From: a bacterium BMS3Bbin05
Lineage (GTDB): Bacteria; Nitrospirota; Thermodesulfovibrionia; Thermodesulfovibrionales; BMS3Bbin05
NCBI GenBank assembly: GCA_002897855.1
Contig: BDTO01000021.1
Coordinates: 10,472-74,471, forward strand
Length of the DNA: 64,000 bases
Direction of reading: 5' to 3'
Shown here piece after piece: positions 9,853 through 61,310 of this stretch. A program made the translations under genes and the position numbers. The first letter of the stretch is position 1. Every line of letters begins with the position of its first letter. The notes beneath the pieces were generated by a model. It was not told the DNA's origin and did no database searches. It saw only the letters and a program-made list of their open reading frames with translations.

Positions 9853-10548
9853 TTAATTTCTTACCGCCGTTACACTGTCAATATTTACTCTGATCCCCGG
9901 CCCCATAGTGGAAGATACAACTATTTTCTTCAGATACTTCCCTTTGCTCGTAGAGGGTTTTGCCTTATTTATTGAATCCACTGCTGCACGTATATTGTCA
10001 ACGATTTTAGCCGTATCAAAGGACACCCTGCCTACGGGCAGGTGCACGATCCCCGTCTTGTCAACCTTGAATTCCACCTTTCCCGCCTTTAGTTCCCTGA
10101 CAGCCTTCCCTACATCAAATGTAACCGTACCAAGTTTCGGGTTAGGCATTAATCCCCTCGGGCCGAGAATCTTGCCAATCTTTCCAACGAGTCCCATTAC
10201 ATCCGGTGTAGCCACCGCCTTATCAAAATCAAGCCATCCCTTCCGGATCTTTTCGACCAGATCCTCAGCACCGACATGGTCCGCTCCGGCTTCCGACGCC
10301 TCTTTTTCCTTCTCACCTTTGGCAAAAACCAGCACCCTGACATCTTTCCCTGTCCCGTGAGGCAGTGCCACAGTGCCTCTGACCATCTGGTCGGATTTTT
10401 TAGGATCAACGCCGAGACGAACAGCAATATCAACCGATTCGTCAAATTTCGCAAAGGCAAGATCTTTTACCTTATTTATTGCTTCTTCAGCCGGGATCTC
10501 TGCATTATTCTCAATATCCTTTTTTGCTTGTTCCAACTTTTTCCCCAT
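9853..10548 (-). CDS. rplA: 50S ribosomal protein L1
   Basis: 231-aa ORF with L1 blocks ([36 protein letters not shown]). Confidence 0.97.
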
Positions 10549-13457: not shown

Positions 13458-15530
13458 TCAGACACCCTTTATTTTGGAAATTATTGCTTCAGAGATATTT
13501 CTCGGGACATCCTCATACCGGGAAAACTGCATAGTGTATGTTGCCCTTCCCTGGGTCTTTGATCTCAGGTCAGTAGCATATCCAAACATCTCCGAAAGAG
13601 GTACAACAGCGCTTATAACCTGCGCTTTACCCCTCTTTTCCATGGTCTGGATCTTCCCCCTACGGGCATTCAGATCACCGATTACATCTCCCATATATTC
13701 CTCGGGGGTAACAACCTCTACCGTCATGACCGGCTCAAGCAGAACAGGCCTGGCCTTTTTTGCAGCTTCCTTAAACCCCATGGAACCGGCAATCTTAAAT
13801 GCTATCTCCGAGGAATCGACTTCATGATAAGAACCATCATAAAGTGTCACCCTGATATCGACAACAGGATACCCTGCCAGCACGCCCGTCTCCAATGCTT
13901 CTTTTATCCCCTTTTCAACAGCCGAGATATATTCCCTGGGTATGGCGCCCCCTACAATCTTGTTAACAAATTCAAACCCGCTGCCATGGGTAAAAGGCTC
14001 AATTTCCAGATAAACATGCCCATACTGCCCGCGGCCGCCTGTCTGCCTTATATATTTGCCTTCCGCTTTCGCCTTTGTCTTTATGGTCTCCTTATATGCT
14101 ACCTGCGGTTTACCCACATTAGCACCGACCTTAAACTCTCTCATGAGACGATCTACAATAATCTCAAGATGCAGCTCTCCCATGCCGGAGATAATTGTCT
14201 GGGCGGTCTCTTCGTCATAGGAAACCTTAAATGACGGGTCTTCCTGCGCAAGTTTTATAAGTGATATGGAAAGTTTTTCCTGGTCGGCCTTGGTCTTGGG
14301 CTCAACGGCAACGGATATAACCGGATCGGGGAATTCCATGGACTCAAGAATGATAGGATTTTCCTCATCGCAAAGCGTATCCCCGGTTAATGTATGCTTT
14401 AGCCCTACAACAGCAGCTATATCACCCGCCCGCACATCTTTTATTTCCTCCCTCTTATTGGAGTGCATCCTGAGAAGCCTGCTTATCCTCTCTTTTGATC
14501 TCTTTGTCGAATTGTAAGTATAAGATCCGGCTGAAAGCACGCCGGAATACACCCTGATAAACGTAAGCTGGCCGACATAAGGGTCTGTCATTACCTTGAA
14601 TGCAAGGGCTGAGAATGGTTCCTTGTCGGCAGCCTCTCTCTCCGCCATAGTCCCATCAACCGCTATACCCTTAACCGGCGGGACGTCAAGAGGCGAGGGC
14701 AAAAAAAACACAATCGCATCAAGCAGCATCTGCACACCTTTGTTCTTGAATGCAGCACCGCACAGGACCGGTGTATGCTTCAAAGAGACCGTCCCCTTCC
14801 TGAGAGCTTCTCTTATCAGGGCTTCGGGCACATCTTGACCTGCAAGGTATTTTTCCATTATTTCATCATCAATATCCGATAAAGCCTCCAGCATCTTATC
14901 CCTGTATTCCTTCGCCTGCTCCATGTATTCTTCAGGAATTTCATCCTCAACAAATTTTGCCCCAAGGGTCTCATCATCAAAATAATACGCCTTCATGCGG
15001 ATAAGGTCTATCGGTCCCCTGAAATTTTCTTCCGAACCAATGGGTATCTGAACGGGGACAGGATTAGCGTCAAGCCTCTCAATCATGGAATTTACAGAAG
15101 CAATGAAATTCGCTCCTACCCTGTCCATCTTATTAATAAACGCTATCCTTGGAACATCATATTTATTGGCCTGACGCCAGACAGTTTCAGATTGGGGCTC
15201 GACTCCTGAAACAGCATCAAAGACAGCCACCGTTCCATCAAGAACCCTCAACGCTCTTTCCACTTCAATAGTAAAATCAACATGGCCCGGGGTATCGATA
15301 ATATTTATCCTGTGGTCCTTCCAGAAGCAGGTGGTTGCAGCGGAGGTAATGGTAATACCCCTTTCCTGTTCCTGGGGCATCCAGTCCATTACGGCGGTAC
15401 CGTCATGTACCTCTCCTATTTTATATGTTTTGCCTGTATAGTAGAGAACCCTTTCGGTCGTAGTTGTCTTCCCGGCATCAATATGCGCCATAATACCTAT
15501 ATTTCTTGTTTTTTCAAGCGGAAATATCAC
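13458..15530 (-). CDS. fusA: Elongation factor G
   Basis: 690 aa with [21 protein letters not shown] and NKMDR GTPase motifs and EF-G domains III-V. Confidence 0.98.
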
Positions 15531-57323: not shown

Positions 57324-57542
57324 ATGCCTACTGCCGTTAGAGTGTCTGATTCTTTGGTTAACGAAGCACGAAAATACAGCAAGGTAGACCATAGGTCGCT
57401 AACCGGCCAGATAGAGCACTGGGCCATGATTGGTAAGTGTGCGGAGGAAAACCCTGACTTAACTTATCATCTAATAAAAGAAATGCTCATCGGGATAGAG
57501 GAGTTAGATCGAGGTGAGAAAACAGAATATCAATTTGGCTGA
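57324..57542 (+). CDS. parD: ParD-like antitoxin
   Basis: The ORF track begins at 57210. ATG 57324 follows AAGGAGGTGG. The product is MPTAVRVSDSLVNEARKYSKVDHRSLTGQIEHWAMIGK... (72 aa), which matches the ParD-like antitoxin pattern paired with ParE-like toxins. Confidence 0.7.
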   Translation: MPTAVRVSDSLVNEARKYSKVDHRSLTGQIEHWAMIGKCAEENPDLTYHLIKEMLIGIEELDRGEKTEYQFG

Positions 57543-57547
57543 AGGCA

Positions 57548-57805
57548 ATGAAAATTTATCAGTCAGGATTATTTGCGAGAAAGGTCAAGAAATTCAATAA
57601 GAACCAAAAAACAACCCTCGACAATGAGATAAAAAAAATAGCTCAAGATCCTACCGTTGGAACAGAAAAGAAGGGGGATCTGAGAGGCGTGTTTGTTCAC
57701 AAGTTTAAAATAAGAACGGCTCTGTATCTGTTGTCATATCGGGTGGTTAACGATGATTTGGAGTTGATTTCCATAGGCTCCCTGAAAATTATTACCGTAA
57801 CTTAA
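57548..57805 (+). CDS. parE: ParE-like/RelE-family toxin with an apparently frameshifted C-terminus
   Basis: 85 aa. MKIYQSGLFARKVKKFNKNQKTTLDNEIKKI...GDLRGVFVHKFK matches the ParE-like toxin pattern. The last 7 residues (LKIITVT) are off-pattern. The canonical ENYYRNLKT ending is encoded in the +1 frame (57783-57812). Confidence 0.7.
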   Translation: MKIYQSGLFARKVKKFNKNQKTTLDNEIKKIAQDPTVGTEKKGDLRGVFVHKFKIRTALYLLSYRVVNDDLELISIGSLKIITVT

Positions 57806-57877
57806 AAACTTAGACGGTTTTTTATTCACAAAATCAAAACCCAAATCCCCGCTTTCATCAAGGTAAAGATAAAGCAA

Positions 57878-58030
57878 TTACACAATCCTTGCCTTTCTAA
57901 GACTGTTTTTCACAAGCTCACGTATGGACCATTCCGTTCATCCTCTGTCAGGCCATGGATCTCCATGACAATGTCATCAAGAGCCTTGCGTTCGGATAAG
58001 GGATATAGGAAGGTCGGAATTGATGCATAC
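57878..58030 (-). pseudogene. Remnant A: decayed copy of a gene 3' end (possibly a DNA methyltransferase / type IIG C-terminus)
   Basis: The minus-strand translation is PLSERKALDDIVMEIHGLTEDERN, then a frameshift, then ELVKNSLRKARIV and a stop. It is homologous to remnant B at both nucleotide and protein level, with an 8-nt deletion. Confidence 0.5.
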
Positions 58031-58046
58031 TTTTGTATGAATAAAG

Positions 58047-59138
58047 TTAAGCTGCCACATCTTTCCACTCAAATCTACGTTTTAGATCGTTACAGTGGCT
58101 ATATGGCAAAAAACCATCATGCTGTAGTCTGCCGACAACGATACCCGGAGCAATACCGATTTCAGAAGCAAATCTTTTGATTGCTGCCTTATTTAATTGT
58201 GATGACTTTAAAAAATGCTGTATTTTTCTTTTAGGAACCAGAATCTCTGAGGCAAACATATTGGCTTCATCCTCTTTGGTGTCATTGCTATCATCTTCAA
58301 TAAAAACATCCTTTTTGCCATGCAAAAGAATATGGCCTGCTTCGTGGAAGAAGCTGAACCATAACTGATCATCTCTTTTATAACGAAGGCTCAGTTGAAT
58401 AACGGCCTTTTTCGGATTCATCCACCATGTTGCGCCACTTGCACGTATTCTGGAAAGTTCAGGTACAAAAGCGACAGCCACACCAGCCCCGGAGCAGATG
58501 TGAATAAGTGCGGGTTGAAAGATTTCGGGTGGTTGATTTGTGAGGTCCCGAATTTCAGAAAGGGCATTTTTAAATTTACGTGCATCATACGGCTTACATT
58601 CAATCTTTTGTGCAACCAATTCTCCCATTCTTAACCATGAGGCTATAGCACCGGGGTCGCTCTGAAATGCAGGTGACTTGCGATATGATACTTCAGCACT
58701 CAACCATTTTTCTTTCCATAGTTCAGGAGAAGCCACACCAAAAAAATTCAAGATTTCCTGAAGCTGCTTGATTTTATCTTTAAAACGTTTTATGTAACCC
58801 CTCTTTATCAGAACATTAACCGGGATTTTTCTGAGCCAATCGATCTGTTTCTTCAGTCTTTTCTGCTCACTGATACGGGCAAGCGTTTCCTGATAATTCC
58901 TCTCAAGGTTGTTCCAGAAACCAGCAGAAATCCCAAGAACCCTCTCTAACTGCAATGCTGTTTCAGGAGTGAGTCCAGCCTTTCCCTTAATAACTTCGTT
59001 AATTGTCTTTTTGGGTCTACCCATCCGTTCAGCAAGCTCTGCCTGAGACATGCCAATTGCTTCTATAGTTTCAAGTAGCGTTTCTCCAGGTGGTACAGCA
59101 TAGTCAGGCTTAAACTGATTTTTTAAATTTCTATCCAT
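58047..59138 (-). CDS. higA: HigA-type XRE antitoxin fused to an ImmA/IrrE-like HExxH metallopeptidase domain
   Basis: The N-terminus PGETLLETIEAIGMSQAELAERMGRPKKTINEVIKGKAGLTPETALQLERVLG is an HTH_XRE/HigA pattern. The C-terminus carries FFHEAGHILLH (HExxH). ATG 59138 follows GGAGGA and overlaps the higB stop by 8 nt (ATGGATAG). Confidence 0.8.
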   Translation of the reverse strand: MDRNLKNQFKPDYAVPPGETLLETIEAIGMSQAELAERMGRPKKTINEVIKGKAGLTPETALQLERVLGISAGFWNNLERNYQETLARISEQKRLKKQIDWLRKIPVNVLIKRGYIKRFKDKIKQLQEILNFFGVASPELWKEKWLSAEVSYRKSPAFQSDPGAIASWLRMGELVAQKIECKPYDARKFKNALSEIRDLTNQPPEIFQPALIHICSGAGVAVAFVPELSRIRASGATWWMNPKKAVIQLSLRYKRDDQLWFSFFHEAGHILLHGKKDVFIEDDSNDTKEDEANMFASEILVPKRKIQHFLKSSQLNKAAIKRFASEIGIAPGIVVGRLQHDGFLPYSHCNDLKRRFEWKDVAA

Positions 59139-59469
59139 GTGTATCCTCCACACTAATAATCCTTATTTCATTAATTTTTGTCCAGTCAAGGCCACCATCT
59201 GATTTCTTTGGTATAGGGTTATTTGCAGGTTCCAAAATGAGACGATAGGGATGATCCAGATCCACTGATAAATAACCTTTTAGCTCTCCTTTTAATTCAT
59301 GGCATCGAGCCTGTGGCAGATTGTACAAATCATCAAGTACATCAGCAGCGGCAAGTTGAGATAGCCGTCTTTTTAAAAGATTGGCTCTTTTAGGGCCATA
59401 TTTTTTCGCCATAATATTCTTATTGTTGCACTCTTTTTCAATCTTGGTTCTTTTAAATAGAATAACCAT
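59131..59469 (-). CDS. higB: HigB-type (plasmid maintenance killer / RelE-ParE superfamily) toxin
   Basis: 112 aa. ...LLKRRLSQLAAADVLDDLYNLPQARCHELKGELKGYLSVDLDHPYRLILE... is the HigB pattern. It lies upstream of and overlaps higA. Confidence 0.8.
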   Translation of the reverse strand: MVILFKRTKIEKECNNKNIMAKKYGPKRANLLKRRLSQLAAADVLDDLYNLPQARCHELKGELKGYLSVDLDHPYRLILEPANNPIPKKSDGGLDWTKINEIRIISVEDTHG

Positions 59470-59489
59470 ATTTTATCATATATGTCAAA

Positions 59490-59514
59490 AATATTAACCT
59501 TAAGGGTTAATATT
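59490..59514. promoter_or_regulatory. Perfect 10-bp-stem inverted repeat upstream of higB (candidate operator)
   Basis: The sequence is AATATTAACC-ttaag-GGTTAATATT. It lies 21 nt upstream of the higB ATG and overlaps the stop codon of remnant B. Confidence 0.5.
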
Positions 59515-59785
59515 CCATACACTCCTTGCCTTCTCAAGCCTGTTCTTAACCAACTCACATACCGCCCAATAGACCTCATTTCGCTTTTCCTGTGTCAATC
59601 CGAGGATGTCAAAGACGATGTCGTCAAGGGCTTGCCTGTCAGGTAAGGGATTGTCTGTTCACGGATGGAACGGTTAGGATTGATGCCAAGTTCTCCGGCC
59701 CTTTCCCTGACAATCCTGTGCCCTGCCTCTTTTATCTCCTTGAGGCTCCTGAAGCCGGGGTTATTTGCGATTCATAGTAGGATAT
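59500..59785 (-). pseudogene. Remnant B: longer decayed 3' portion of the same gene type as remnant A
   Basis: The minus strand reads IANNPGFRSLKEIKEAGHRIVRERAGELGINPNRSIREQTI, then a frameshift and stop, then NPLPDRQALDDIVFDILGLTQEKRNEVYWAVCELVKNRLEKARSVWNINP and a stop. There is no start codon and the frame is interrupted. Confidence 0.5.
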
Positions 59786-59802
59786 CCTGGAATTTCATCA
59801 AA

Positions 59803-60969
59803 TTAATTCTCTTTAAATATTGCTATGTAATCTTCATATCTGAACAGCCTGTTACGCTTCTGGCCTGTGTATTCCCTCAGGATATTATGTTTTAGAAACC
59901 GGGACATTAACTGGCTTGCTGCGGTAAAACTAAGCCCTGTGAGTTGAATAATATCGTTTATGCTGATAATAGGTTTTGAATATAAGGATTCCAGCACTTT
60001 CAGACCATTAGCTGTAGATCTGCCAAAACTTCCGACAATCCGTGAACGGTCTCTCTCCCTCAGGTACACAATGCGTCTTGCCGTCTCCGTAGCAGCCGAG
60101 GCAACTTCAGCCACCGCAGTAAGAAAGAACTTAAGCCATCCCTCCCAATCTCCTCTATCTCTGACGGCCTGTAAGAGTTCATAATATTGCTCTCTATGTT
60201 TCTTGAAATAATGGGAAATATAGAGTACAGGCTTTTGCAGAATTTTCCAGTCACACAGAAGCAAGGCAATAAGAAGTCTTCCGATCCGTCCGTTCCCATC
60301 CAGAAAAGGGTGAATTGTTTCAAGTTGTGCATGAGCCATGCCTATTTTTATTAAAGCCGGCATATCAGGGGTATCACTGTGAATAAACTTTTCAAGGCCG
60401 GAAAGACATTGCGGTACCTCCTGGGGAGGGGGTGGTATAAAGACAGCATCTGAAATTGTACTTCCTGCAGGACCAACCCAGTTCTGTGTTGTTCTCAGTT
60501 CACCGGGCTGACGTTCTGCACCTCTGACACCTTTAAGTAATAGTTTATGAATCTCACGCAACAGCCGGACGGAAACCGGAAGTTCCTCCAATCGTTTTAT
60601 CCCTTGATTAAGGGCATGTATATAGTTTATAACCTCTTCTACATCGGAGGAATGCCGCCTGCGGAATATCATAGCCTCGGCCTCGAGGACATCATCCAGA
60701 GAGCTCTGAGTCCCCTCAATCTGGCTGGAAAGTACCGCTTCTTTGCGCACATACATGAAAACAAACAGGTTGGCATCCGGAAGGGTCTGTATAGAGCCAT
60801 CAAGCCTGCCTAATGCCCGGTCAGCCTTTGATACCAGAGACATCATCTTGCTATCCATAGATAGAGGCGGGTCAGGCGGCAACGCTGAGGGGATAAATGC
60901 CCGATAGCCACTTGGCTGTTGAATATACCGGCCGGCCCGATATGAAATGTTCAGATTGTTTTTCGTCAT
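59803..60969 (-). CDS. fic: Fic/DOC family protein (AMPylase-type)
   Basis: It carries the Fic motif HPFLDGNGRIGRLL. ATG 60969 (MTKNNLNISYRAGRY) is preferred over the ORF-track start 61008, because the extension covers a repeated promoter-region box. Confidence 0.92.
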   Translation of the reverse strand: MTKNNLNISYRAGRYIQQPSGYRAFIPSALPPDPPLSMDSKMMSLVSKADRALGRLDGSIQTLPDANLFVFMYVRKEAVLSSQIEGTQSSLDDVLEAEAMIFRRRHSSDVEEVINYIHALNQGIKRLEELPVSVRLLREIHKLLLKGVRGAERQPGELRTTQNWVGPAGSTISDAVFIPPPPQEVPQCLSGLEKFIHSDTPDMPALIKIGMAHAQLETIHPFLDGNGRIGRLLIALLLCDWKILQKPVLYISHYFKKHREQYYELLQAVRDRGDWEGWLKFFLTAVAEVASAATETARRIVYLRERDRSRIVGSFGRSTANGLKVLESLYSKPIISINDIIQLTGLSFTAASQLMSRFLKHNILREYTGQKRNRLFRYEDYIAIFKEN

Positions 60970-60982
60970 CGTATTAAATGAT

Positions 60983-61061
60983 GCCTTTAATATAATAAAT
61001 TCTGTCAATCTTATTCAAGGGTACCTTTAATATAACATACCCTCGGTCCTATATTAAGGGT
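60983..61061. promoter_or_regulatory. Three CCTTTAATATA-type boxes upstream of fic (two direct, one inverted)
   Basis: The boxes are gcctttaatataa (60983-60995), acctttaatataa (61023-61035) and the inverted tatattaagggt (61050-61061). Confidence 0.4.
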
Positions 61062-61109
61062 TACCTTAAGTTTATCACTCCTCCAGCATGTCCGTCACAT
61101 CCTCGACAA

Positions 61110-61310
61110 TCACACTCTCTCCCCCGTATTCAAAGAATCTATATATCTGTCCACCCTCTCCAGGATGGCAAAGTTATATTTCTCAAAGAAGTTAAAGACC
61201 ATCTCAAAAAGGTCGTCCCTTATATGAATGTATAAATTGTCCAGATCGTTTTTTTGGAAGAGTCCGCCATTAAGGTAAAGAGCCGGGGCAAGTACCCTGA
61301 CTCCCTGAAT
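61110..61310 (-). pseudogene. Remnant N: fragment resembling the N-terminal region of a type IIG/PglX-like N6-adenine DNA methyltransferase
   Basis: The minus-strand ORF tail is ...VLAPALYLNGGLFQKNDLDNLYIHIRDDLFEMVFNFFEKYNFAILER... and then terminates. The LNGGLF and YNF..E motifs are as I recall them for MmeI/Eco57I/PglX-type enzymes. It overlaps the promoter and 5' end of the opposite-strand acd gene. Confidence 0.4.

What the first reader, a model, noticed from the sequence alone, without database searches (positions are those of the whole stretch)
57878..59785. higBA cassette bracketed by two diverged direct copies of the same gene 3' end
Remnant B (59500-59785) and remnant A (57878-58030) lie on the same strand. 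They align over about 150 nt and encode the same peptide pattern: (D/E)R(Q/K)ALDDIV(F/M)(D/E)I(L/H)GLT(Q/E)(E/D)(K/E)RN...ELVKN(R/S)L(E/R)KAR(S/I)V. Copy A carries an 8-nt deletion and is truncated exactly where the cassette begins. This is the footprint expected when an element inserts into the 3' end of a gene while bringing a surrogate copy of that end, or when cassettes are exchanged by recombination at a conserved gene terminus. The higB operator-like hairpin overlaps the stop codon of copy B. No integrase is visible.
Basis: partly seen in the sequence, partly recalled or inferred. Interest (0 to 1): 0.55.

Follow-up and report, generated by a model that had tools for sequence, protein, structure and literature searches.

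The report
Relic gene ends bracketing a toxin-antitoxin cassette
The two repeats are leftover 3' ends of two different versions of a large restriction-modification gene, and they mark a spot where small toxin-antitoxin and defence genes get stacked by recombination at that conserved gene end.

Summary
Copies A (57879-58023) and B (59516-59695) are significantly similar direct repeats on the minus strand, and they are the only two in the window.

Both are the conserved 64-codon C-terminal "tail" of a ~1,230-aa type IIG-like restriction/methyltransferase gene. That gene occurs full-length in many bacteria and archaea, usually followed by an HKD+Snf2 helicase gene.

Here the parent gene is a wreck:
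- a 47-codon N-terminal fragment remains;
- SoFic sits in an internal cargo slot;
- the specificity domain is deleted;
- tail B is frameshifted.

Tail B plus higBA is a module that follows intact parent genes in three other genomes. Tail A is the 5'-truncated end of a second allele, still joined to a DUF3800 gene stump.

A and B differ far more at synonymous than at non-synonymous sites, so they come from long-diverged alleles and not from an in-situ duplication. At least 13 other loci carry the same co-oriented [partial tail + cargo] arrays. One strain polymorphism shows a crossover inside a tail that swaps the downstream cargo.

No integrase, fixed junction or attC-like hairpin was found. 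The best reading is recombination-driven stacking of accessory cassettes at a conserved gene terminus. This is a new variant of a known kind, of moderate interest.

The parts
61158..61298 (-). N-terminal helical fragment of the parent type IIG-like RE/MTase gene (..YLNGGLFQKNDLD..FFEKYNFAILE, equal to aa 283-329 of the full-length protein).
   Evidence: tblastn of full-length L012/L014 proteins, E = 7e-14 and 68-70% identity. blastn to L001, L012, L014, L028 and L076.
61010..61157 (-). Relic of the 3' end of 'gene 1' of the split form of the parent gene (..YRFFEYGGESVIVEDVTDMLEE*), plus the spacer upstream of Fic.
   Evidence: blastn to L028 8395-8521. tblastn of the L028 gene-1 end, E = 0.002. 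Translation.
59803..60969 (-). SoFic-type Fic/DOC protein sitting in the internal cargo slot between gene 1 and the S-like gene. An alternative TTG start lies at 61008.
   Evidence: Pfam Fic_N 2.9e-28 and Fic 1.6e-19. PADLOC SoFic 6.7e-124. The HPFLDGNGRIGR motif is visible. L101 has the same Fic + mini-S arrangement.
59696..59798 (-). 5' end of the S-like (specificity) ORF of the split parent gene: MKFQDILL*IANNPGFRSLKEIKEAGHRIVRER. It has an in-frame stop, and the whole specificity domain that should follow is deleted.
   Evidence: tblastn to the L028 S-like ORF start, E = 1.7e-9. Homologous intact ~290-aa ORFs in L030, L036, L063, L049 and L079. P0003/P0005 are similar specificity-domain-less forms.
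59516..59695 (-). Tail copy B: the conserved C-terminal 60 codons of the parent gene. It is frameshifted at its 5' side, its canonical stop is mutated to TGG, and the actual stop is at 59500-59502.
   Evidence: nhmmer E = 3e-44, model 11-194. tblastn E = 8e-24, 91% identity to the consensus. pN/pS 0.09 against the nearest full-length tail.
59490..59514 (.). Near-perfect palindrome AATATTAACCTTAAGGGTTAATATT followed by promoter-like hexamers. Presumed HigA operator/higBA promoter and part of the higBA module.
   Evidence: Self-complementary blastn hit. The same TTAACC..GGTTAA palindrome + TTGACA follows the stop of full-length parent genes in L014, L017 and L057. Promoter-like sites at 59497-59470 and 59537-59509. 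Binding was not tested.
59131..59469 (-). higB-like toxin gene (112 aa).
   Evidence: Pfam HigB-like_toxin 1.3e-7, 32.4 bits against a cutoff of 27.
58047..59153 (-). higA-like antitoxin gene with an N-terminal HTH and a C-terminal M78 (ImmA/IrrE) peptidase domain (368 aa).
   Evidence: NCBIfam antidote_HigA 61.9 bits against a cutoff of 47.7. Pfam Peptidase_M78 and HTH_3. PADLOC PD-Lambda-2_B 2e-36. 73% nt identity with the modules of L014/L017/L057; homology with L014 ends at 58036.
57879..58023 (-). Tail copy A: 5'-truncated, frameshifted relic of the same C-terminal tail from a second allele. Weak similarity continues to about 58042. Its stop codon TAA is at 57878-57880.
   Evidence: nhmmer E = 4e-21, model 23-194. 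tblastn E = 7e-8. pN/pS 0.24 against the nearest full-length tail, about twice the control.
57734..57877 (-). 5' stump (47 codons, TTG start directly after the tail A stop) of a DUF3800 gene. This is the cargo that belonged to the tail A allele.
   Evidence: blastn to DUF3800 gene starts in L001, L019, L046 (92%) and L069. The identical tail-stop|start-codon junction is in L069 3162 and L058 12138 and in L102 ~10900. DUF3800 Pfam hit on the full-length homologue in L058.
57324..57805 (+). Convergent ParD-like/ParE-like toxin-antitoxin pair. Its 3' end overlaps the DUF3800 stump, and it bounds the relic array on this side.
   Evidence: Pfam ParD_like 1.9e-19 and ParE-like_toxin 1.1e-22.

Best explanation
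Window 57734-61298 (minus strand) is the wreck of a two-gene defence operon. In intact form this operon is a ~1,230-aa type IIG-like restriction/methyltransferase gene followed by an HKD(PLD)+Snf2 helicase gene.

In relatives, the space directly after the methyltransferase stop codon is a slot that fills with small accessory genes: toxin-antitoxin pairs, DUF3800, SIR2, Gabija-like genes and others. In a split form of the gene there is a second slot in front of the specificity domain.

Copies A and B are the conserved last ~60 codons of two different, long-diverged alleles of that gene.
- [Tail B + operator + higBA] is a module that arrived attached to one allele. That allele later lost its methyltransferase and specificity domains and acquired or kept SoFic.
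- [Tail A + DUF3800 stump] is what remains of the allele that was there before.

Inferred mechanism: incoming DNA recombines homologously within the conserved gene or tail. Its far end joins illegitimately, or in another tail copy, so the resident 3' end and its cargo are pushed downstream. Displaced tails then shrink from their 5' side. Their last ~40 nt tend to persist because they carry the ribosome-binding site (AAGGAG in ..KARSV*) and possibly promoter elements for the next gene. Loss of a resident toxin-antitoxin pair would also be lethal.

What is shown: the identity of the remnants, their origin from different alleles, the recurrence of such arrays, and one crossover inside a tail. What is inferred: the nature of the right-hand joint, and the reasons the relics are retained.
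For: **Parentage**
- The tail ends full-length ORFs of 1,100-1,290 aa in roughly half of 80 genome loci from very diverse bacteria and archaea.
- These ORFs hit Eco57I, MmeI_Mtase and M_Eco57I_C in Pfam, and REase_MTase_IIG (1e-49) in PADLOC.
- The window keeps a further fragment of the same gene at 61158-61298.

**Operon and slot**
- An HKD+Snf2 helicase gene lies downstream in 33 of 82 loci.
- The gap from the methyltransferase stop to the helicase start is 1-76 nt in 8 loci and 0.5-4.7 kb in the others.
- A census of 104 cargo ORFs is dominated by TA and defence families, with no integrase among the 25 commonest families.

**Module identity**
- Tail + palindrome + higB + higA follows intact parent genes in L014, L017 and L057 at 73% nt identity to window 59693-58036.
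- The tail-stop|DUF3800-start junction of copy A recurs in L069, L058 and L102.

**Recurrence**
- About 20 extra partial tails occur in L001, L018, L025, L028, L039, L040, L045, L058, L063, L069, L070, L071, L076 and L102.
- All are co-oriented. All end at the stop codon, apart from one copy cut by a contig end (L040) and one internal fragment (L069 4666-4765). They start 0-76 nt after the upstream gene's stop in the 14 junctions checked.

**Different alleles**
- A vs B: pN 0.22, pS 0.63, Fisher p = 4e-5. Five other within-locus pairs give the same pattern.
- Downstream copies have about twice the pN/pS of full-length controls, whereas B looks recently inactivated at 0.09.

**Recombination in the tail**
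- L102 vs L105: 7 mismatches in 2,010 nt, then 13 in the last 78 nt of the tail, then unrelated cargo.

**Expression signal**
- A GGAG-type motif lies in the last 20 nt of 52 of 88 tails.
- An ORF of at least 50 codons opens within -8..+15 nt of the stop in 43 of 80 tails.
- In six long partial copies the last 39 nt are 75% identical to the consensus against 67% for the upstream part (p = 0.03). Full copies give 78% and 79%.
Against: - No event was caught with both ends visible. L105 ends before its right-hand junction, so double homologous exchange, Campbell-type integration of a circle and illegitimate joining cannot be told apart.
- The junctions are very tight, with partial tails starting 0-76 nt after the previous gene. 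Random illegitimate joins would not give this without later trimming or selection.
- Tails from different loci are only ~70-85% identical in DNA, which is poor substrate for RecA-type recombination.
- The extra conservation of the last 39 nt is weak (p = 0.03), and short copies are ascertained by similarity.
- All public contigs of this same organism are identical across the region, so no alternative arrangement of this locus itself was seen.
- In the window the helicase gene is absent, so the operon context is inferred from relatives.
Confidence: 0.6

Rival explanations
1. Site-specific insertion. A small mobilisable cassette (higBA plus a surrogate gene end) was integrated into the 3' end of the gene by a tyrosine or serine recombinase supplied in trans, as with e14/phage 21 at icd, tRNA-targeting islands, or integron/pdif-type modules.
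For: - Two co-oriented copies of a gene's 3' end bracket the insert, and the distal copy is the more decayed.
- The copies come from different alleles, as expected for a surrogate end.
- Partial copies nearly always include the stop codon, as surrogate ends must.
- The arrays resemble tandem insertions at one attachment site.
Against: - The 5' limits of about 20 partial tails are scattered over model positions 10-166. They are tied neither to the upstream nor to the downstream cargo type: DUF4258 modules follow tails starting at 10, 10, 94, 123 and 127.
- The longest identical run between A and B is 10 nt.
- No integrase lies within about 5 kb in the window, and none is among the commonest families of 104 cargo ORFs.
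- The tail shows no excess secondary structure on either strand, z = +0.5 and +0.4.
- The one recent event seen has a graded identity drop inside the tail, which is typical of homologous rather than site-specific exchange.
Confidence: 0.1
2. Independent side-by-side arrival, then deletion. Two complete copies of the RM operon (or RM gene plus cargo) once lay in tandem at this hotspot. Ordinary deletions then removed nearly all of the second gene and most of the first. The tails survive only because they abut selected cargo genes.
For: - The locus is demonstrably eroded by several deletions: methyltransferase domain, specificity domain and DUF3800 body.
- Remnants of every length exist in other genomes, from 17 codons to several hundred.
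- Internal-deletion forms such as P0028 and P0005 are common.
- Different-allele origin fits this model equally well.
Against: - It requires a precise deletion from the end of one cargo gene into the last 190 nt of a 3.7-kb gene, repeated in many loci and several times per array.
- It does not explain the L102/L105 breakpoint inside a tail.
- No locus with two full-length tandem copies was seen among 80 genome loci.
Confidence: 0.22
3. Chance similarity, or a dispersed non-coding repeat unrelated to any gene.
For: None beyond the modest 69% nucleotide identity between A and B.
Against: - E = 1.75e-8 within the window.
- Both copies match a 77-sequence profile of a coding tail at E = 4e-21 and 3e-44.
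- There are only two copies in 64 kb.
- Substitutions are concentrated at synonymous sites.
Confidence: 0.01

Closest known systems
Prophage e14 / phage 21 integration at icd in E. coli, with displaced icd 3' pseudogene (my own knowledge, not checked with tools)
   Same: Inserted DNA is bracketed by two direct copies of the 3' end of one gene. The incoming DNA supplies a diverged replacement end, and the original end is left downstream as a decaying fragment.
   Different: Here there is no integrase next to the proximal copy and no shared core. The 5' limit of the displaced copy varies between loci, the inserts are 0.6-2.3-kb cargo cassettes rather than a prophage, and the target gene itself is dead in this window.
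Sedentary chromosomal integron cassette arrays with toxin-antitoxin cassettes (PMC13108822; PMC2654758)
   Same: Co-oriented arrays of small, tightly packed cassettes separated by a recurring short sequence. They are rich in TA pairs, which are thought to hold the array together, and new units are added next to the anchor.
   Different: The separator is a relic coding sequence (a gene 3' end of 30-190 nt), not an attC hairpin (no folding signal). There is no IntI or attI. The separator lies 5' of each cargo and supplies its ribosome-binding site. The exchange seen looks homologous.
Accessory or 'back-up' genes embedded in RM and BREX-type loci, e.g. prrC inside the EcoprrI type IC locus and effectors embedded in BREX/BR loci (PMC12707154; PMC12839542)
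   Same: TA-like and abortive-infection genes (SoFic, HigBA, PIN toxins, OLD/Gabija-like, SIR2, Schlafen) sit between the core genes of a methylation-based defence operon.
   Different: As far as I read them, those descriptions do not report relic copies of a core gene's 3' end delimiting the embedded genes. The core here is a two-gene type IIG-like MTase + HKD-Snf2 helicase pair without DUF499/BrxC.
Specificity-domain exchange at conserved flanking regions in type I HsdS and type IIG/III enzymes (my own knowledge)
   Same: A variable specificity domain is flanked by strongly conserved segments (..ILEKG.. and the tail). Different specificity domains are joined to the same tail, and conserved segments act as crossover points.
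   Different: Here the exchange carries whole downstream genes, not just a domain, and leaves stacked 3' relics.
Hma (Snf2-nuclease helicase, methylase, ATPase) and class 1 DISARM DrmMI/DrmD (PADLOC models; PMC11232893 by title and abstract only)
   Same: The parent operon pairs a large N6-adenine MTase-like protein (DrmMI 3e-22) with a nuclease-fused Snf2 helicase (DrmD 8e-49, HmaA 4e-34, 'HKD+Snf2' C3a139 8e-58).
   Different: No ATPase (HmaC), DrmA/B/C or DUF499 partner was seen in L014, L017, L012 or L019. The best MTase hits are type IIG RE-MTase models.

Membership tests
Type IIG-like RE/MTase (Eco57I/MmeI-type), as the parent of the remnants | Remnants are homologous to the C-terminus of full-length family members | tested here: met
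   The tail ends ORFs of 1,100-1,290 aa that hit Eco57I 2.5e-34, MmeI_Mtase, M_Eco57I_C and PADLOC REase_MTase_IIG 1.4e-49. Window copies match the tail profile at E = 3e-44 and 4e-21.
Type IIG-like RE/MTase (Eco57I/MmeI-type), as the parent of the remnants | N6-adenine MTase catalytic motifs (AdoMet-binding motif, NPPY) present in the locus | tested here: not met
   Full-length relatives have ..VVDPACGSGAFL.. and ..GNPPYV... tblastn of those proteins on the window recovers only aa 283-329 and the tail. The window therefore holds a pseudogene, not a member.
Type IIG-like RE/MTase (Eco57I/MmeI-type), as the parent of the remnants | Endonuclease activity/domain in the same polypeptide | not tested
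   The N-terminal ~280 aa of the full-length relatives had no Pfam hit. No structure prediction was run.
HigBA type II toxin-antitoxin | HigB-like RelE-fold toxin gene | tested here: met
   Pfam HigB-like_toxin, 32.4 bits against a cutoff of 27.
HigBA type II toxin-antitoxin | HigA-type HTH antitoxin encoded downstream of the toxin (reversed order) | tested here: met
   TIGR02607 antidote_HigA, 61.9 bits against a cutoff of 47.7. The genes overlap at 59131-59153 with the toxin first. The extra M78 peptidase domain is atypical for classic HigA.
HigBA type II toxin-antitoxin | Autoregulation through a palindromic operator; toxicity and neutralisation | not testable with these tools
   A palindrome at 59490-59514 is conserved in L014, L017 and L057, but binding and toxicity need experiments.
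Integron gene cassette array | IntI integrase and attI next to the array | tested here: not met
   No integrase in the window flanks or among the 25 commonest families of 104 cargo ORFs.
Integron gene cassette array | attC sites: imperfect inverted repeats that fold as single-stranded hairpins | tested here: not met
   MFE z-scores of 40 tails are +0.50 (top strand) and +0.37 (bottom strand), with a minimum of -1.6.
Integrative element with surrogate gene end (e14/icd type, tRNA-island type) | Integrase gene adjacent to the proximal repeat | tested here: not met
   Between the copies there are only higB and higA. Upstream are Fic and gene relics.
Integrative element with surrogate gene end (e14/icd type, tRNA-island type) | Identical core shared by the two repeats, and a fixed repeat boundary for a given element type | tested here: not met
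   The longest identical run between A and B is 10 nt. The 5' limits are spread over model positions 10-166 and are not tied to cargo type.
SoFic defence protein | Fic_N + Fic domains with the HPFx[D/E]GNGR motif and a C-terminal wHTH | tested here: met
   PADLOC SoFic 6.7e-124 over 356 of 361 positions. Pfam Fic_N and Fic. HPFLDGNGRIGR is in the translation. The NCBIfam SoFic equivalog scored 164 bits against a cutoff of 550, so the match is at subfamily level only.
Type-2 BREX-related (BR) system (PMC12839542) | DUF499 ATPase and DUF3780 alongside the N6-MTase and HKD-Snf2 helicase | tested here: not met
   L014, L017, L012 and L019 have housekeeping genes directly outside the MTase...helicase pair, with no ~1,000-aa third core ORF. 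DUF3780 is not among the commonest cargo families.

The most novel reading that the evidence does not exclude
The conserved 3' tail of this type IIG-like methyltransferase gene may act as the capture site of an integrase-free cassette system spread across bacteria and archaea. Any DNA carrying a tail copy plus cargo could be taken up by host homologous recombination. The tail's last ~40 nt would then provide the ribosome-binding site or promoter that expresses the captured toxin-antitoxin or defence gene. Addictive cargo would ratchet the array so that it only grows. The relic tails would then be an ordered fossil record of successive acquisitions.
Probability: 0.25. Interest if true: 0.75.

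Novelty: new variant of a known kind. Interest (0 to 1): 0.5.

Why it matters
Defence islands are known to be mosaics, but how individual small systems are added is mostly unknown outside integrase-bearing elements.

Here the conserved end of one core gene recurs as a co-oriented separator between accessory cassettes in phylogenetically very distant genomes. The separators derive from different alleles, and a strain-level polymorphism shows a crossover inside one of them.

If this holds generally, it gives a concrete and testable route for assembling defence islands without a dedicated recombinase: homology at a conserved gene terminus plus retention by addiction. It also gives a way to read the order of acquisitions from relic gene ends.

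For this window itself the practical message is more modest. The region is a decayed defence locus in which the only intact genes are SoFic, HigBA(-M78) and a ParDE-like pair.

Tried and rejected
- **Family scans of the tail peptide.** Pfam and NCBIfam gave no family. Parentage had to come from genomic context.
- **First protein search.** It returned only short ORFs of 49-157 aa, which briefly suggested an independent small protein or a non-coding repeat. The genome scan then showed the tail at the end of full-length 1,200-aa ORFs.
- **attC/REP-like hairpin in the tail.** Rejected; no excess folding.
- **Fixed junction or shared motif at the 5' ends of partial tails.** None found. A small palindrome CCCCTCTT(G/A)ATAGAGGGG abuts two junctions (L028, L046) but not the others.
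- **Cassette = cargo + following tail, or preceding tail + cargo, with a constant boundary.** Rejected; boundaries vary for the same cargo type.
- **In-situ duplication.** Rejected by pN << pS.
- **Membership in Type-2 BR, Hma or DISARM.** The core partners are absent.
- **Helicase remnant in the window.** None.
- **Looking for the empty or alternative state of this locus in close relatives.**
  - The flanking aminotransferase is not on record.
  - The metagenome scan found only distant homologues.
  - All contigs carrying the identical Fic/HigB are the same sequence.
- **Literature.** Five searches found embedded accessory genes in RM/BREX loci and TA-stabilised integron arrays, but no description of relic 3' ends delimiting cassettes. 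Absence from this library is not proof of novelty.
Full report

- blastn of region B against the whole 64-kb window gives copy A as the only significant non-self match: 69% over 134 nt, E = 1.75e-8.
- A nucleotide profile built from 77 homologous sequences finds just these two copies in the window, at E = 3e-44 for B and 4e-21 for A.

Some details need correcting.
- The frameshifting gap in A is 10 nt, not 8, and there is a second gap of ~17 nt.
- B is also a pseudogene. It has an in-frame stop in MKFQDILL*, a frameshift before LPDRQALDD, and its normal stop codon is mutated to TGG, so the frame ends at a TAA (59500-59502) inside the palindrome at 59490-59514.

**2. What the repeat is**

The peptide has no Pfam or NCBIfam family. 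A protein search returned 178 hits, and the 120 listed were all short ORFs (49-157 aa). The 55 whose sequences I read share ..GINPxxPIREQxPNPLPDRKALDDIVFDILGLTEEERNEVYWAVCELVKNRLEKARSV* behind unrelated N-terminal parts.

A scan of one genome per species found 256 confirmed matches. In roughly half of the 80 fetched loci, this 64-codon tail ends an open frame of 1,100-1,290 aa. Hosts range from Nitrospirota, Aquificota, Desulfurella, Brocadia and WOR-3 to CPR bacteria, Aenigmatarchaeota, ANME-1 and Thermoplasmatales.

The full-length protein matches Eco57I, MmeI_Mtase and M_Eco57I_C in Pfam and type IIG RE-MTase models in PADLOC (1.4e-49; DrmMI 3e-22).

Downstream, 33 of 82 loci carry a ~1,050-aa HKD(PLD)+Snf2 helicase gene (PADLOC 'HKD+Snf2' 8e-58, DrmD 8e-49). 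Its start lies 1-76 nt after the methyltransferase stop in eight loci and 0.5-4.7 kb after it in the rest. No DUF499/BrxC-type ATPase accompanies them, so this is not the Type-2 BR system of PMC12839542.

**3. Anatomy of the window locus** (minus strand, 5' to 3')

| Coordinates | Feature |
|---|---|
| 61298-61158 | 47 codons of the parent's N-terminal helical region |
| 61157-61010 | Relic ..VIVEDVTDMLEE*, which in L028 and six other loci ends 'gene 1' of a split form of the enzyme |
| 60969-59803 | SoFic (PADLOC 6.7e-124) |
| 59798-59696 | Start of the ~290-aa S-like ORF of the split form (MKFxxI..NNPGFxSLKEIKEAGxRIV..), with the whole specificity domain deleted so that it runs straight into tail B |
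| 59695-59516 | Tail B |
| 59514-58047 | Palindrome, higB, and higA with an HTH + M78 peptidase domain |
| 58023-57879 | Tail A |
| 57877-57734 | A TTG-started 47-codon stump of a DUF3800 gene directly after tail A's stop |
| 57324-57805 | Convergent ParD/ParE-like pair, which overlaps the DUF3800 stump |

No helicase remnant is left. Flanking genes are housekeeping: an aminotransferase and an ADP-forming acyl-CoA synthetase. The only tRNA gene is 46 kb away.

**4. The two copies belong to two different modules**

The block [tail - TTAACC..GGTTAA palindrome - TTGACA - higB - higA] follows intact, full-length parent genes in L014, L017 and L057 at ~73% nucleotide identity to window 59693-58036. 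Homology with L014 stops 11 nt after the higA stop. What follows higA differs in all four loci.

The junction 'tail stop codon | DUF3800 start codon' of copy A recurs in L069, L058 and L102. B therefore came with higBA, and A came with DUF3800.

A and B differ at 63% of synonymous but only 22% of non-synonymous sites (Fisher p = 4e-5), and five other within-locus tail pairs behave the same way. Most of their divergence therefore accumulated while each was part of a functional gene in separate lineages. This excludes in-situ duplication.

Against the nearest full-length tails, B has pN/pS 0.09, which looks like a recently inactivated copy. A has 0.24 and other downstream copies 0.20-0.38, against 0.13 for full-length controls. 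The distal copy is therefore the older relic.

**5. The pattern is general**

Extra tail copies lie downstream of the main one in L001, L018, L025, L028, L039, L040, L045, L058, L063, L069, L070, L071, L076 and L102.
- All of the roughly 20 copies are on the same strand as the parent.
- All end at the stop codon, except one copy cut by a contig end (L040) and one internal fragment (L069 4666-4765).
- Their 5' limits are scattered from model position 10 to 166. In the 14 junctions checked they begin 0-76 nt after the stop of the preceding gene.

Cargo between them includes a UvrD-like helicase, MazEF, VapBC, DUF4258/DUF2283, DUF433/DUF5615-PIN, an M78-HTH/DUF4411 pair, a RAYT-like protein and a 23S-IVS-type four-helix protein.

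A census of 104 ORFs lying after tails gives:

| Family | ORFs |
|---|---|
| SIR2_2 | 6 |
| DUF3800 | 6 |
| DUF433 / DUF5615 / PIN_10 | 5 each |
| DUF2283 | 5 |
| Peptidase_M78 + HTH | 4 |
| AAA_21 | 3 |
| HigB | 3 |
| AAA_15 / UvrD | 2 |
| Schlafen | 2 |

No integrase is among the 25 commonest families.

Arrays survive the loss of the parent gene. L058 has four relic tails directly after topA, and L102 has three between an ABC transporter and cytochrome oxidase genes.

**6. Mechanism**

*Against a site-specific process:*
- scattered 5' limits that follow neither the upstream nor the downstream cargo type (DUF4258 modules follow tails starting at 10, 10, 94, 123 and 127);
- no common junction motif;
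- at most 10 identical bases shared by A and B;
- no excess folding of either strand of the tail, z = +0.5 and +0.4.

*For homologous exchange in the tail.* L102 and L105 are strain variants of one Nitrospinae locus. They differ at 7 of 2,010 positions up to a point 78 nt before the stop of their second tail. They then differ at 13 of those 78 positions and are unrelated afterwards. L102 carries two genes of 223 and 215 aa, while L105 carries a DUF4258/DUF2283 pair like that of L076.

*Why relics might persist.*
- The tail's last codons AAG GCA AGG AGT GTG TGA contain AAGGAG. A GGAG-type motif is present in 52 of 88 tails.
- An ORF of at least 50 codons opens within -8..+15 nt of the stop in 43 of 80.
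- In six long partial copies the last 39 nt are better kept than the rest, 75% vs 67% (p = 0.03), against 78% and 79% in full copies. This is weak evidence.
- Retention of TA cargo by addiction is established knowledge for other arrays (PMC13108822, PMC2654758) and is only inferred here.

*What remains unknown.* I could not see the right-hand end of any fresh event. Whether that join is illegitimate, lies in another tail, or follows Campbell-type integration of a circle stays open. A rival in which whole tandem gene copies were whittled down by deletions keeps appreciable weight (0.22).

**7. Comparison with known systems**

- The footprint resembles e14/phage 21 at icd (surrogate end plus displaced pseudogene), but without integrase, core or fixed boundary.
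- The arrays resemble sedentary integrons rich in TA cassettes, but the separator is a coding relic with no hairpin and there is no IntI.
- Functionally the cargo resembles the accessory or back-up genes embedded in type I RM and BREX-type loci, such as prrC (PMC12707154, PMC12839542).

Five literature searches found no description of relic 3' ends of a core gene delimiting embedded cassettes. The library is incomplete, so this is not proof of novelty.

**8. Verdict**

The window holds a decayed instance, not an active system. I rate it a new variant of a known kind, with interest 0.5.

Noticed in passing
window 59696-61157; L028 8334-9386; L030, L036, L063, L079, L049, L101: The parent enzyme exists in a split form: gene 1 ends ..NEFFYVxDVTDLxEDE*, followed by cargo, followed by a ~290-aa S-like ORF (MKFSEIKxKIKNLGNFKS..specificity domain..tail). 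This gives a second cargo slot in front of the specificity domain. The slot holds SoFic in the window, OLD-like nuclease + SoFic in L101, a DUF3800-like gene in L036, and unknown genes elsewhere.
   Followed up: partly
window 57770-57805 (+): The ParE-like toxin ORF ends ..IGSLKIITVT*. Restoring one base in ..GGCTCCC-TGAAAAT.. would give ..IGSHENYYRNLKT*, which looks like the usual end of this family. The Pfam match stops at profile position 78 of 87. This may be a 1-nt frameshift or a sequencing error.
   Followed up: no
window 57741-58592; loci L093-L100: Eight public contigs (marine metagenome PRJDB5792, GCA_011051055.1, GCA_011043155.1) are 99.9-100% identical to the window. All of them terminate inside this region, at 58592, 58299, 57804 or 57741. 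That suggests assembly-graph branching, from strain variation or repeats, right at higA / tail A / parE.
   Followed up: partly
L028 ~10235-10251 and L046 ~14511-14528; L012, L017 and L001 parent ORFs: A small palindrome CCCCTCTT(G/A)ATAGAGGGG abuts two partial-tail junctions. Repeat-derived in-frame insertions (..ATPSARNDKVLSAILG.., ..SPLSRGAGGVS..) sit inside otherwise intact parent genes. RAYT-like (IS200-type Y1) genes are cargo in L039, L071 and L070. A role for REP/RAYT-type elements in the rearrangements was not examined.
   Followed up: no
L006-L085: The 64-aa tail is 70-95% identical in protein across bacteria and archaea, including CPR, DPANN and ANME-1, while synonymous sites are saturated (pS ~0.6). 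This indicates strong, old protein-level constraint on the tail, for example as a docking surface for the helicase partner, rather than recent spread of one DNA.
   Followed up: partly
output: All 120 listed hits of the protein search were ORFs of at most 157 aa, although full-length ~1,230-aa proteins with 90-95% identical tails exist in the genome collection (L012, L014, L017). I did not work out why the long proteins did not rank.
   Followed up: no
window 58047-59153 (-): The HigA-like antitoxin carries a C-terminal M78 (ImmA/IrrE) peptidase domain and matches PADLOC PD-Lambda-2_B (2e-36). HigB gave no PADLOC hit. Whether this pair is a plain TA system or part of a PD-lambda-2-like defence system is open.
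   Followed up: no
P0008: On a 924-nt contig, one short ORF fuses the C-terminal RpoN box of sigma-54 (..RRTVAKYRDQLGI) directly to the tail at ..LGINPARPVREQ... This suggests a tail-bearing array abutting rpoN, with a junction at the shared LGI codons.
   Followed up: no
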